Source of the DNA: an uncultured Eubacteriales bacterium
GTDB taxonomy: Bacteria > Bacillota > Clostridia > Oscillospirales > CAG-382
Reading direction: 5' to 3'
Length of the DNA: 64,000 nucleotides
NCBI GenBank assembly: GCA_934444485.1
Contig: CAKSCN010000001.1
Location: forward strand, 12,355-76,354
Part shown: positions 47,901 to 48,744 of the stretch, piece after piece
Position numbering within the stretch: position 1 is the first letter of the stretch
Layout: every line of letters begins with the position of its first letter
Position numbers and translations under genes: made by a program
Notes under the pieces: generated by a model
Told to the model about the DNA's origin: nothing
What the model saw: the letters and a program-made list of their open reading frames with translations, nothing else
Database searches by the model: none

Positions 47901-48086
47901 GTAGCCGTTGCTCAACAGATCGTCTTCATTATCCGTCATATCAAAACTACTCTGTTTATTTGCCTGCGGCTTGCCTAAATCCGGGGTATAGAAAACCTTG
48001 TCGTGGTGAGGCTGTCCGCTGAATACACGAGCGACCGCTTCAACTGCTTCGGTTTGATACTGCTGTATCTTAAAGTTAAATTTCAT
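44988..48086 (-). CDS. res: Type III restriction-modification system Res subunit (DEAD/DEAH-like helicase-nuclease)
   Basis: 1,032 aa. N-terminus [18 protein letters not shown], Walker A [11 protein letters not shown], motif [11 protein letters not shown], helicase C block [20 protein letters not shown]. The C-terminal endonuclease-like region is typical of Type III Res. Confidence 0.85.
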   Translation of the reverse strand: [1032 protein letters not shown]

Positions 48087-48744
48087 AGTCAGACACCTTT
48101 ATTTCAAGTTTACTTGTAATAAACTCAATAGTCTTATTACCATGCGACGCTGAATCAAGATTAAATATTTCTTGAATTGCATGAATATTGGCATCGTGTT
48201 CATCAAAGAAATATGCCAAATCTCTAACAGCCTTCAGAGCATTTTCTGCAGTATTTATATCCAAGTCTAATTCTATATATTTTGTTATATCAAAATCAGA
48301 ATTAAGAATTGCTTTAGCATCTGTGCCTCGACTTTTGGGATGAACGCATTTGTTACGATTTTCAACCAAAGCAATTAAGCCTGAGTAGTATGGCTTGCTT
48401 TTATTTATTTCAACTTTCAATAATTCTTTGGATATGTGTTCAAATTTACATATCGTCGGACGCTTTTCTAATTTCCCATAAAAATTTTCATCCCCCAAGC
48501 ATGCGGCTGCATAATCATTTAAAAACGCTTCAATGCACATAGCGGAAAATACAACAGCAGTTATGCTTAATTTATAAATGCTTCTGTATTTTGTAAGCAA
48601 ATCGTTTATGTCTTCGGTAGAGGTAGTCATTTTGTCTAATCTCTCTGCACAGTAGTAAGCATTCACAGCCATCTCACAATACATCGCAGATAAACAATTA
48701 ATTCTTATCTGAGAATATATTGGATAAATACCTTGTTTTTCCAT
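48076..48744 (-). CDS. uncharacterised protein with a HEPN-like RNxxxH motif, inserted between mod and res
   Basis: 222 aa counted from ATG 48744, which lies 1 nt after the mod stop (TGATATG). Its 3-prime end overlaps the res start by 11 nt. It looks predicted helical and carries LVENRNKCVHPKS (Rx4H, at 48357..48340). The codon usage is visibly AT-rich. Confidence 0.6.
   Translation of the reverse strand: MEKQGIYPIYSQIRINCLSAMYCEMAVNAYYCAERLDKMTTSTEDINDLLTKYRSIYKLSITAVVFSAMCIEAFLNDYAAACLGDENFYGKLEKRPTICKFEHISKELLKVEINKSKPYYSGLIALVENRNKCVHPKSRGTDAKAILNSDFDITKYIELDLDINTAENALKAVRDLAYFFDEHDANIHAIQEIFNLDSASHGNKTIEFITSKLEIKVSDYEI

What the first reader, a model, noticed from the sequence alone, without database searches (positions are those of the whole stretch)
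48076..48744. HEPN-like (RNxxxH) protein wedged between mod and res
Seen in sequence: a 222-aa ORF sits in the position where mod and res normally abut, and it overlaps both neighbours. It contains LVENRNKCVHPKS, that is R-N-x-x-x-H (nt 48357..48340), in a protein whose composition looks all-helical.

Established knowledge: the Rx4-6H motif, often RNxxxH, is the catalytic signature of HEPN RNases. These act as abortive-infection or toxin effectors, and some are embedded in RM operons.

Inference: this could be an RNase backup effector licensed by the Type III complex. The motif is short and could occur by chance.
Basis: partly seen in the sequence, partly recalled or inferred. Interest (0 to 1): 0.7.

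Follow-up and report, generated by a model that had tools for sequence, protein, structure and literature searches.

The report
HEPN-like cassette inside Type III operon
The small gene between the methylase and the nuclease of this restriction system is real, belongs to an unannotated family of predicted HEPN-type RNases, and is one of many interchangeable defence genes found at that exact junction in related operons: a new family of a known kind, not a new kind of system.

Summary
A 222-aa gene (window 48076-48744, minus strand) lies between Type III mod and res and carries R130-N-x-x-x-H135.

The motif alone is weak evidence: Rx4-6H appears in 38% of shuffles of this protein. Conservation makes it meaningful. 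In 171 diverse relatives R130 is kept in 170, H135 in 171 and E72 in 169.

Two independent AlphaFold models (pLDDT 89 and 88) are all-helical. The motif sits at the end of helix 3, an acidic residue in helix 2, and an insert between helices 2 and 3, which is the HEPN layout. The top 11 and top 12 Foldseek PDB hits are all HEPN proteins, though E-values are only about 0.1. Pfam, NCBIfam and PADLOC have no model for the family, which has at least 1274 clusters at 50% identity.

The gene is a cassette. DNA homology to sister operons stops at 48745 and resumes at 48086. Of 78 sister operons, 5 have mod and res abutting or within 151 nt, and the rest carry roughly 20 or more unrelated cargo families. 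These include AbiJ-type HEPN proteins, Shedu, RhuM, and this family in 3.

Six of 16 family loci lie outside any Type III operon, and the cargo does not co-diverge with Res. It is most likely an autonomous abortive-infection RNase co-expressed with the operon. Licensing by the Type III complex is unproven.

The parts
48076..48744 (-). 222-aa gene of an unannotated HEPN-like family. It is the cargo cassette at the mod/res junction ('slot B').
   Evidence: ORF and sequence. 45 homologues, and 1274 representatives at E<=1e-3. AF2 model pLDDT 89. DNA homology to sister operons ends at 48745 and resumes at 48086. GC 0.33 against 0.44-0.47 in the flanks.
48340..48357 (-). R130-N-K-C-V-H135, the Rx4H motif. 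The family consensus is R[ND]xx[VI]Hx-K-S.
   Evidence: R in 170/171, N or D in 168/171, H in 171/171, K137 in 164/171 and S138 in 160/171. R130 is at the end of helix 118-134 and H135 is the first loop residue, the position described for HEPN in PMC3710099.
48490..48549 (-). Conserved block FSAMCIEAFLNDYAAACLGD (residues 66-85) in the long helix 2. It contains the near-invariant E72 (codon 48529-48531).
   Evidence: E72 in 169/171, N76 in 161/171, Y78 in 160/171, D85 in 162/171. Helix 46-83 in the model. Spatial proximity of E72 to the motif was not measured.
48445..48447 (-). K100 codon, near-invariant, in the helical insert between helices 2 and 3.
   Evidence: K in 170/171. Helix 97-108.
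48754..48760 (-). AGGAAGG Shine-Dalgarno-like sequence inside the last codons of mod. It serves whichever gene follows the mod stop: the cargo here, res in empty sites.
   Evidence: Sequence. The same AGGAAGGTGCTGTAA/TGA end of mod precedes either res or a cargo start codon in 19 sister loci. Its function as a ribosome-binding site is inferred.
48094..48099 (-). AAGGTG ribosome-binding-like sequence inside the 3' end of the cargo gene, 7 nt upstream of the res ATG (48086).
   Evidence: Sequence. Other cargo genes also end with GGAGG/AGGTG just before the res ATG. Function inferred.
48746..50731 (-). Type III Mod methyltransferase. Its target-recognition region, about 49445-50054, is variable.
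   Evidence: Pfam N6_N4_Mtase 1e-31 and PADLOC MTase_III 5e-217. DNA homology to sister operons is lost at 49445-50054. GC 0.30 there.
44988..48086 (-). Type III Res (helicase plus endonuclease).
   Evidence: Pfam ResIII and RE_endonuc, PADLOC REase_III 5e-291.
50728..51501 (-). 257-aa gene of unknown family in a second variable position ('slot A') between DUF4391 and mod.
   Evidence: No hit passing a family's curated cut-off in Pfam or NCBIfam, and none in PADLOC. GC 0.305. DNA homology to sister operons is lost across 50726-51543. Other unrelated genes occupy this position in L008, L010, L011, L012 and L021.
51510..52100 (-). DUF4391 protein, a conserved operon member.
   Evidence: Pfam DUF4391 1.4e-35. 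Present in L008, L010, L011, L012, L016 and L021.
52110..55784 (-). SNF2-family helicase with an N-terminal ASCH domain, first gene of the operon. The start codon is uncertain.
   Evidence: Pfam SNF2-rel_dom, Helicase_C and ASCH. Best PADLOC hit is C3a139 'HKD+Snf2' at 2e-124.
55969..55997 (-). Best promoter-like site (TTGATA-17-TATAAT with a TG extension) upstream of the helicase gene.
   Evidence: 11 of 12 positions matched. This is a consensus match only.
44674..44697 (.). Bidirectional terminator-like hairpin downstream of res. It is the likely end of the six-gene operon.
   Evidence: 9-10 bp stem with 7 GC pairs. No comparable hairpin lies between mod, the cargo gene and res.

Best explanation
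The 222-aa gene encodes a member of a sizeable but unannotated family of HEPN-fold proteins. [quoted passage not shown] By analogy with characterised HEPN proteins it is most likely a metal-independent endoribonuclease that acts as an abortive-infection or growth-arrest effector.

Genetically it is a cassette. It sits exactly at the mod-stop/res-start junction of a six-gene operon: SNF2/ASCH helicase, DUF4391, variable gene, Mod, this gene, Res. It uses the ribosome-binding sequence embedded in the last codons of mod and brings its own for res, so it is co-transcribed with the restriction genes and probably translationally coupled to them.

In related operons the same junction is either empty or holds one of about 20 or more unrelated small genes, including known defence genes. 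Exchange probably occurs by homologous recombination in the conserved flanks. The protein probably works on its own, because it also occurs outside R-M operons, as a second defence layer that travels and is expressed with the Type III system.

Shown: the gene, family conservation, predicted fold, cassette boundaries, slot diversity and operon structure. Inferred: RNase activity, defence role, autonomy and the mode of exchange.
For: Gene and family:
- 45 homologues in the first search. 1274 representatives at E<=1e-3 and 575 at E<=1e-10 in the exhaustive search.
- R130 in 170/171, H135 in 171/171, N/D131 in 168/171, E72 in 169/171, K100 in 170/171.

Fold:
- The model of the window protein has pLDDT 89 and pTM 0.88. 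Helices are 19-39, 46-83, an insert at 85-108, 118-134, a variable loop, then 163-183.
- In Foldseek against the PDB, hits 1-11 are all HEPN proteins (AF_0298 and the HepT toxins 7bxo, 6m6u, 6m6w, 7ae6), with probability 0.72-0.99.
- An independent model of a relative about 23% identical (P0195, pLDDT 88) gives HEPN proteins as hits 1-12, with probability up to 1.00 and TM up to 0.61.
- Weak Pfam hits go to HEPN_RiboL-PSP, Cthe2314 and MAE_28990.
- One RefSeq relative is named 'HEPN domain-containing protein'.

Cassette:
- blastn homology to L031 (flanks 84-95% identical) and to seven other operons ends near the mod stop (48737-48750; at 48745 in L031 and L032) and resumes at the res start (48085-48088).
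- Empty sites have TAATG stop/start overlap or a single spacer base.
- 73 of 78 sister operons carry 370-1630 nt of cargo, clustering into about 20 or more families.
- Cargo families include AbiJ_NTD3/4 proteins, Abi_C (in the closest operon, L031), Shedu SduA_C, RhuM, a DUF4145-like protein with RNKYAH, 23S_rRNA_IVP, DUF2971 and SLFN/AlbA_2.

Autonomy:
- 6 of 16 loci are outside Type III operons. They lie next to integrases or recombinases, an RT-protease gene, RhuM or housekeeping genes.
- There is no co-divergence with Res.

Precedent: an embedded HEPN gene (HEC-08) confers phage defence that is lost on mutating the motif histidine (bioRxiv 10.1101/2024.01.29.577857).
Against: - No statistically significant sequence or profile link to any known HEPN family. 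All Pfam hits are below threshold, and a clearly spurious family (GH7) is hit by more members (14/46) than any HEPN model.
- The profile search of PDB sequences found nothing relevant.
- hhalign against shallow AbiJ-like, DUF4145-like and HepT alignments aligned the motifs in register but was not significant.
- Foldseek E-values are only about 0.1, and helical bundles match each other easily.
- Spatial proximity of E72 to R130/H135, dimerisation, RNase activity, toxicity and phage defence were not tested.
- No antitoxin or trigger is identified, so how a solo RNase is kept silent is unknown.
Confidence: 0.6

Rival explanations
1. PrrC-like licensed effector. The HEPN protein binds the Type III Mod/Res complex, possibly with the SNF2/DUF4391 partners, and is held inactive. 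It is released as an RNase when a phage anti-restriction factor disables the complex.
For: - The gene is embedded directly upstream of the restriction subunit gene. This matches prrC in the EcoprrI operon, as described in PMC3710099 and in the discussion of bioRxiv 10.1101/2024.01.29.577857.
- The stop/start arrangement is tightly coupled, with an 11-nt overlap with res.
- 10 of 16 family loci lie between mod and res, and in most of them the gene directly precedes res.
Against: - 6 of 16 loci have no Type III genes nearby.
- The slot holds many unrelated proteins, including known stand-alone systems (Shedu, AbiJ), which argues against a specific protein-protein fit.
- There is no co-divergence with Res (Mantel r 0.17, p 0.23).
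- The protein lacks the NTPase domain through which PrrC is regulated; it models as a single all-helical protein with no Pfam domain.
Confidence: 0.18
2. Addiction or stabilisation toxin. The HEPN protein mainly makes the operon or its mobile carrier hard to lose, through post-segregational killing, rather than defending against phage.
For: - HEPN toxins of toxin-antitoxin (TA) systems (HepT) are the nearest structural matches.
- Stand-alone copies sit at the edges of integrative elements, next to tyrosine or serine recombinases.
Against: - No conserved adjacent antitoxin such as an MNT gene in any context examined.
- Alternative cargo in the same slot is dominated by Abi and defence genes.
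Confidence: 0.1
3. Non-catalytic helical accessory protein. For example, an RNA- or nucleotide-binding regulator, or a subunit that modulates Type III activity, with the R/H residues used for ligand binding rather than cleavage.
For: - Some HEPN domains are non-catalytic (PMC3710099).
- No enzymatic evidence was obtained here.
Against: - The full catalytic constellation is near-invariant: E, R, N/D and H at 98-100% of 171 members. PMC3710099 associates this with active RNases.
- The family also occurs outside R-M operons.
Confidence: 0.07
4. Chance ORF or chance motif with no function.
For: Rx4-6H occurs in 38% of shuffles of this sequence.
Against: - 1274 diverged relatives conserve length and motifs.
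- The structure prediction is confident.
- The cassette boundaries are precise and keep the coupled start and stop signals.
Confidence: 0.01

Closest known systems
PrrC anticodon nuclease embedded in the EcoprrI Type Ic R-M operon
   Same: Both are HEPN-type proteins with an Rx4-6H motif, encoded inside an R-M operon immediately upstream of the restriction-subunit gene. PrrC is the textbook case of a back-up RNase linked to restriction (PMC3710099; discussion in bioRxiv 10.1101/2024.01.29.577857).
   Different: - PrrC has an N-terminal ABC-type NTPase domain that mediates its regulation. This protein is a single 222-aa helical protein.
- The host system here is Type III-like with extra SNF2 and DUF4391 genes, not Type I.
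- There is no evidence here of control by the R-M proteins.
HepT (DUF86, PF01934) HEPN toxins of HepT-MntA toxin-antitoxin systems (PDB 5yep, 6m6w, 7bxo, 7ae6)
   Same: These are the best structural matches for two independent models. They share the Rx4H motif, and a greedy hhalign puts R on R and H on H (not significant).
   Different: - No MNT antitoxin gene lies next to any family member.
- This protein is about 90 residues longer, with a long helix 2, a helical insert, a variable loop after the motif and a C-terminal extension.
- There is no significant sequence similarity.
AbiJ / Abi_C (PF14355) HEPN abortive-infection proteins
   Same: They occupy exactly the same mod/res junction in sister operons: 15 loci with AbiJ_NTD3/4 proteins, and L031, the closest operon, with Abi_C at E 7e-27. 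The motif context is similar (RNxYGSGHGKS against RNxxVHxKS).
   Different: - AbiJ proteins carry N-terminal sensor-like domains, with the HEPN domain at the C-terminus. Here the HEPN core is the whole protein.
- Motif spacing is Rx6H against Rx4H.
- hhalign was not significant.
HEC-08, a DUF3644-type HEPN protein embedded in Hma systems (Payne et al., bioRxiv 10.1101/2024.01.29.577857)
   Same: It is a HEPN gene nested in a methylation-based defence operon, also found outside it. Defence is abolished by mutating the motif histidine. Its nearest structure is the same one (SO_3166, 5yep).
   Different: - It belongs to a different HEPN family with C-terminal zinc-ribbon domains.
- That study covered Hma, BREX, DISARM and Type I R-M, not Type III.
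- The window protein has no PADLOC v2 hit.
RiboL-PSP-HEPN (PF18735), in the Abi2/Swt1 branch of the HEPN superfamily
   Same: It is the most frequent HEPN Pfam model among sub-threshold hits: 6 of 46 members with best E 0.0033, and also P0182, where the C-terminal half of the profile is matched.
   Different: All hits are far below the 28.4-bit cut-off. There is no L-PSP fusion and no ParB neighbourhood.

Membership tests
HEPN superfamily | [quoted passage not shown] | tested here: met
   - AF2 models show helices 19-39, 46-83, 118-134 and 163-183, with a helical insert at 85-108.
- Top Foldseek PDB hits are HEPN proteins in both runs.
- E-values are about 0.1, so this is a consistent but not a strong match.
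HEPN superfamily | [quoted passage not shown] | tested here: met
   - R130 is in the last turn of helix 118-134 and H135 is the first loop residue.
- R in 170/171, N or D in 168/171, H in 171/171.
- The criterion is taken from PMC3710099.
HEPN superfamily | Conserved acidic residue in helix 2, close to the motif | tested here: inconclusive
   E72 is in helix 46-83 and is conserved in 169/171.
HEPN superfamily | Significant sequence or profile similarity to an established HEPN family | tested here: not met
   - Pfam, NCBIfam and PADLOC give no hit above threshold.
- The PDB profile search found nothing relevant.
- hhalign against shallow alignments was not significant.
- HHpred against full libraries could not be run.
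HEPN superfamily | Metal-independent endoRNase activity, usually as a dimer with a composite active site | not testable with these tools
   Needs biochemistry or a multimer model.
PrrC/RloC-type R-M-licensed anticodon nucleases | N-terminal ABC/NTPase regulatory domain fused to the HEPN domain | tested here: not met
   The protein is 222 aa and all-helical, with no NTPase hit in Pfam.
PrrC/RloC-type R-M-licensed anticodon nucleases | Gene embedded in an R-M operon next to the restriction-subunit gene | tested here: met
   for the window. 10 of 16 family loci show the same arrangement.
PrrC/RloC-type R-M-licensed anticodon nucleases | Latency imposed by the R-M proteins and release by a phage anti-restriction factor | not testable with these tools
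   The indirect evidence is unfavourable: stand-alone copies exist and there is no co-divergence with Res.
HepT-MntA (HEPN-MNT) toxin-antitoxin | Adjacent minimal nucleotidyltransferase antitoxin gene | tested here: not met
   No MNT gene flanks the family gene in the window or in any examined locus. The HepT/MNT pair in L025 is unrelated and lies 3 kb away.
Genes embedded in defence systems ('guilt-by-embedding', Payne et al. 2024) | Nested between genes of a known multi-gene defence system, in the same orientation, with homologues also found outside such systems | tested here: met
   The gene is on the same strand as mod and res, between them. 10 loci are embedded and 6 are not.
Type III restriction-modification (host operon) | Mod (N6/N4 methyltransferase with a variable recognition domain) plus Res (SF2 helicase with a C-terminal endonuclease) | tested here: met
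   - Searches give full-length PADLOC matches at 5e-217 and 5e-291.
- The upstream SNF2 and DUF4391 genes are additional to the canonical two-gene system and conserved with it.

The most novel reading that the evidence does not exclude
The mod/res junction could be a functional 'effector socket'. In that case the SNF2-DUF4391-Mod-Res machinery would act as a common sensor. It would gate whichever effector is plugged in (HEPN RNases of at least three families, a Shedu nuclease, RhuM, membrane proteins), making this a modular two-layer immune system rather than co-transported independent genes. The exact conservation of the coupled stop/start junction and the very high occupancy (73 of 78 operons) are compatible with this reading but do not require it.
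Probability: 0.1. Interest if true: 0.8.

Novelty: new member of a known kind. Interest (0 to 1): 0.45.

Why it matters
- It adds a sizeable HEPN-like family (at least 1274 clusters at 50% identity, mostly from gut Clostridia, with distant relatives in Proteobacteria and other phyla) that current Pfam, NCBIfam and PADLOC models miss. Genomes carrying it are therefore under-annotated for defence.
- It shows that Type III-like operons have a base-precise, almost always occupied cargo position. The 'guilt-by-embedding' idea was worked out for Hma, BREX, DISARM and Type I systems; this extends it to Type III.
- The junction offers a ready list of about 20 candidate defence genes, many with no known domain.
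- It is a clean test bed for whether embedded effectors are independent of, or controlled by, the surrounding restriction system.

Tried and rejected
Searches that found nothing useful:
- Pfam, PADLOC and NCBIfam on the protein and on 46 relatives gave nothing above threshold. The most recurrent weak hit was a spurious GH7 match, which shows that counting weak hits is unreliable.
- A profile search of PDB sequences found only a designed helical protein.
- Foldseek against viral structures (BFVD) was uninformative.
- tblastn against phage genomes found no match. Against plasmids it found five 'hypothetical protein' hits at 28-37% identity.
- hhalign of the family against shallow alignments of slot-mates (AbiJ-like, 23S_rRNA_IVP, DUF4145-like) and a single HepT sequence aligned the motifs but was not significant.

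Resources that were unavailable or not used:
- The supplement of PMC3710099 holds no alignments.
- A 2026 preprint on the MANTIS system appeared in searches but could not be read, so nothing is taken from it.
- I ran no further search on building a deep HepT or Abi_C alignment. A negative result would not have been informative, and the fold evidence was already replicated.

Readings rejected:
- The 240-aa TTG-start version of the ORF (homologue N-termini and the homology breakpoint support ATG 48744).
- A controller (C) protein (no HTH, and the size does not fit).
- A HepT-MntA TA module (no MNT gene).
- A chance ORF.
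Full report
**1. The observation**

The ORF listing and the raw sequence show a minus-strand ORF ending at 48076. Three things support that ATG:
- It lies one base after the mod stop codon (TGA, 48748-48746).
- It is preceded by AGGAAGG (48760-48754).
- It matches the N-termini of homologues and the point where DNA homology to sister operons ends.

The stop codon (TAA, 48078-48076) lies 11 nt inside res, whose ATG is at 48086. 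So the gene overlaps res but not mod, a small correction to the finding. LVENRNKCVHPKS is present, and R130 to H135 correspond to nt 48357-48340 as stated.

The neighbours are a full-length Type III Mod and Res (Pfam N6_N4_Mtase; ResIII + RE_endonuc; PADLOC MTase_III 5e-217 and REase_III 5e-291).

The motif by itself is weak evidence. Rx4-6H appears in 38% of shuffles of this protein, R[ND]xxxH in 2% and RNxxxH in 1%.

**2. A real, conserved family without annotation**

Pfam, NCBIfam and PADLOC have no model for the protein.
- The word-indexed search found 45 homologues at 33-44% identity plus one at 91%.
- A profile search of 1.84 billion representatives found 1274 proteins at E<=1e-3 and 575 at E<=1e-10.

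I aligned 171 near-full-length members from the two searches. Conservation was:
- R130 in 170 and H135 in 171
- residue 131 as N or D in 168
- E72 in 169 and K100 in 170
- K137 in 164 and S138 in 160

The family signature is therefore FSAMxIEAFLNDY...K...R[ND]xx[VI]HxKS. This conservation, not the motif's presence, makes the observation more than chance.

Only one relative carries a name in any source. RefSeq WP_299668802.1 is called 'HEPN domain-containing protein'. I could not reproduce the basis of that name with NCBIfam or Pfam, so it is a lead and not a test.

**3. Fold**

AlphaFold2 with the 46-sequence alignment gave a confident model (pLDDT 89.2, pTM 0.88). It is all-helical:
- helix 19-39
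- a long helix 46-83 that carries E72
- short helices 85-91 and 97-108 (the latter carries K100)
- helix 118-134, with R130 in its last turn and H135 as the first residue after it
- a poorly conserved, lower-confidence loop (135-162)
- helix 163-183, followed by short C-terminal helices

Anantharaman et al. (PMC3710099) describe the HEPN domain as a four-helix bundle. [quoted passage not shown] The model matches all three points.

In Foldseek against the PDB, hits 1-11 were all HEPN proteins: AF_0298 and HepT toxins from HepT-MntA complexes, with probability 0.72-0.99.

As a replicate I modelled P0195, which is about 23% identical to the window protein (pLDDT 88.4). Its hits 1-12 were again all HEPN proteins: SO_3166 (5yep) and other HepT structures (6m6w, 6m6u, 7bxo), plus 2hsb (AF_0298), with probability up to 1.00, TM up to 0.61 and rmsd 5-6 A.

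The weaknesses are as follows:
- Foldseek E-values are only about 0.1, and helical bundles match one another easily.
- No sequence or profile comparison reached significance.
- The sub-threshold Pfam hits to HEPN_RiboL-PSP (6 of 46 members), Cthe2314 and MAE_28990 are outnumbered by an obviously spurious GH7 hit (14 of 46).

I put HEPN-superfamily membership at roughly 85%.

**4. Genomic anatomy: the gene is a cassette at a precise junction**

The operon on the minus strand, in order:
- an SNF2 helicase with an N-terminal ASCH domain (52110-55784)
- DUF4391 (51510-52100)
- a 257-aa gene with no family (50728-51501)
- mod (48746-50731)
- the 222-aa gene
- res (44988-48086)

The best promoter-like site lies upstream of the helicase, and the best terminator-like hairpin lies after res.

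GC content drops to 0.33 in the 222-aa gene, 0.30 in the Mod recognition region and 0.305 in the 257-aa gene. The backbone is at 0.43-0.47.

I fetched 80 metagenomic operons whose Res N-terminus is 72-92% identical to the window's. In the eight closest operons compared by blastn, homology to the window runs through the 3' part of mod up to the mod stop (48737-48750; 48745 in L031 and L032). It disappears there and resumes at the res start (48085-48088). This includes L031, whose flanking mod 3' end, helicase and res DNA are 84-95% identical to the window. Homology is also lost over slot A (50726-51543), the Mod recognition region (49445-50054) and, unexpectedly, the N-terminal two-thirds of DUF4391.

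Junction sequences show how the site works:
- In empty sites the last codons of mod (...AGGAAGGTGCTGTAA) run straight into res, overlapping its start as TAATG in L044 and L084 and one base before it in L104.
- In occupied sites the cargo start codon takes that place, using the AGGAAGG inside mod as its ribosome-binding sequence.
- The cargo ends with its own GGAGG/AGGTG a few bases before the res ATG. In the window this is AAGGTG at 48099-48094.

**5. What occupies the junction elsewhere**

In 78 sister operons where the mod end could be located, only 5 have a gap of 151 nt or less. The other 73 carry 370-1630 nt of cargo.

The cargo ORFs cluster into about 20 or more unrelated protein families, counting clusters whose ORFs are at least about 100 aa. 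Pfam identifies several of them:

| Cargo | Sister loci |
|---|---|
| AbiJ_NTD3 + AbiJ_NTD4 proteins | 15 |
| RhuM | 11 |
| Coiled-coil, apparently membrane-anchored proteins | 9 |
| 23S_rRNA_IVP four-helix proteins | 5 |
| DUF2971 | 4, plus L071 |
| SLFN/AlbA_2 + HATPase_c_4 | 3 |
| 204-aa protein with RNKYAH and a weak DUF4145 (HEPN) hit | 3 |
| The present family (hmmsearch E 1e-62 to 1e-80) | 3 |
| Shedu SduA_C nuclease | 1 |
| GNAT acetyltransferase | 1 |

The closest operon, L031, carries a 363-aa protein with an Abi_C domain (E 7e-27; motif RNHYGSGHGKS) in place of the window gene. The position is therefore a hot spot for single-gene defence modules, and HEPN-type proteins of at least three families alternate there.

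**6. Where the family itself occurs**

Sixteen distinct loci hold close family members.

Ten are between mod and res of this operon type: L004, L007, L008, L010, L011, L012, L016, L018, L019 and L021. In most the gene directly precedes res, and sometimes there are further small genes in the slot.

Six are elsewhere:
- L001: next to a tyrosine integrase and an RT-trypsin gene
- L013 and L014: next to a large serine recombinase
- L006: beside an SRAP gene and a prophage lysis region
- L020: after a RhuM gene
- L017: among housekeeping genes

Distant relatives follow a Type ISP/IIG enzyme (L022) or HNH-domain genes (L025, L026). No partner gene is conserved across these contexts.

Across 13 embedded copies, identity between the cargo proteins (29-51%) does not track identity between their Res proteins (57-87%). 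Mantel r is 0.17 with p = 0.23.

**7. Mechanism**

The best-supported reading is a solo HEPN endoribonuclease that serves as an abortive-infection or growth-arrest effector. It is expressed from the operon's transcript by translational coupling and spreads with the operon or by cassette exchange through the conserved flanks.

Shown: the gene, its conservation, the predicted fold, the cassette boundaries, the slot's diversity and the operon layout. Inferred: RNase activity, toxicity, the defence role, the trigger and recombinational exchange.

The position just upstream of the restriction gene and the tight coupling fit it. Against it stand the stand-alone copies, the unrelated slot-mates, the lack of co-divergence and the absence of a PrrC-type NTPase domain. 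I give it about 0.18. A TA-like addiction role gets about 0.1 and a non-catalytic role about 0.07.

**8. Comparison with what is known**

- HEPN genes linked to R-M operons are well documented. PMC3710099 counts at least 16 HEPN clades with such links and proposes the PrrC analogy.
- Payne et al. (bioRxiv 10.1101/2024.01.29.577857) showed that multi-gene defence systems commonly contain embedded genes. They validated seven such systems, including a HEPN protein (HEC-08) whose defence is lost when the motif histidine is mutated.
- In the passages I searched, that study analysed Hma, BREX, DISARM and Type I R-M, and Type III was not mentioned. The window protein hits no PADLOC v2 model.
- DUF4391 is mentioned in only two papers of the searchable library, neither about this operon.

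The finding is therefore a new family within a known kind, in a known type of arrangement. The base-precise, almost always occupied Type III junction is a useful extra observation.

**9. Verdict**

- Observation: confirmed, with one minor correction.
- HEPN interpretation: supported at fold and motif level, but without a significant sequence link.
- Licensing idea: untested and mildly disfavoured.
- Novelty: new member of a known kind.
- Interest: 0.45. A specialist would find this useful and tidy rather than surprising. The reading that could raise it, that the junction is a functional effector socket gated by the restriction machinery, I rate at about 10%.

Noticed in passing
L031-L110 (mod/res junction); window 48087-48745: In 73 of 78 sister operons the mod/res junction carries cargo of about 20 or more unrelated families. 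These include AbiJ-type proteins, Abi_C, RhuM, Shedu SduA_C, 23S_rRNA_IVP, DUF2971, SLFN/AlbA_2, GNAT, and several apparently membrane-anchored (not tested) or unknown proteins. Only 5 operons have mod and res within 151 nt of each other, three of them with stop/start overlap or a single spacer base.
   Followed up: yes
window 50728-51501 (-): A 257-aa gene with no Pfam, NCBIfam or PADLOC family and low GC (0.305) sits in a second variable position between DUF4391 and mod. Sister operons hold unrelated genes there: 273-282 aa, 470-478 aa, a 608-aa protein with a sub-threshold DUF4365 hit (22.6 bits against a cut-off of 24.3), or three genes in L012.
   Followed up: partly
window 51684-52117 (-), N-terminal two-thirds of DUF4391: DNA homology to L031 is lost over this stretch, although the adjacent helicase gene is about 95% identical. 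The C-terminal 46 codons of DUF4391 are again 91% identical. This part of DUF4391 seems to diversify or be exchanged like a specificity domain.
   Followed up: no
window 49445-50054 (-), inside mod: The central region of Mod has GC 0.30 and no DNA homology to sister operons. It is presumably the target-recognition domain being swapped between alleles.
   Followed up: partly
window 52110-55784 (-): The SNF2 helicase has an N-terminal ASCH domain (residues 10-63). Its best PADLOC match is the candidate model C3a139 'HKD+Snf2' (2e-124), ahead of DrmD, BrxH and HmaA. The conserved SNF2 + DUF4391 + Mod + Res arrangement is barely mentioned in the searchable literature: DUF4391 appears in only two papers.
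   Followed up: partly
L012 6236-9990: This sister operon has two tandem Mod genes (628 and 621 aa) upstream of the HEPN-like gene.
   Followed up: no
L011 8684-9223 and L052 6331-6945: Other slot-B proteins also look HEPN-like. A 179-aa protein has a weak PF05168 HEPN hit (E 0.023), and a 204-aa protein has RNKYAH and a weak DUF4145 hit (E 0.012).
   Followed up: no
window 57777-58610 (-) and 56195-57307 (-): A DUF4238 gene and a 370-aa gene with no family lie just upstream of the operon. A DUF4238 gene also lies next to a distant relative of the HEPN-like family in L026, which suggests a small defence island.
   Followed up: no
L001 10763-12445 (-): A reverse transcriptase fused to a trypsin-like protease (RVT_1 + Trypsin_2) lies convergent to a stand-alone family member, beside an integrase.
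   Followed up: no
window 34507-44525 (+) and 20032-31080 (-): There are large secreted proteins with cohesin, dockerin, Listeria-Bacteroides repeat and phage-tail-lysozyme domains, and a 3682-aa ORF. These are typical of gut Clostridia (Ruminococcus/Oscillospiraceae-like) surface machinery and are unrelated to the finding.
   Followed up: no
alignment A1 (46 family members): Fourteen members give weak Pfam hits (best E 0.0015) to glycosyl hydrolase family 7. This is clearly spurious for an all-helical protein, and is a caution against counting recurrent sub-threshold hits as evidence.
   Followed up: no
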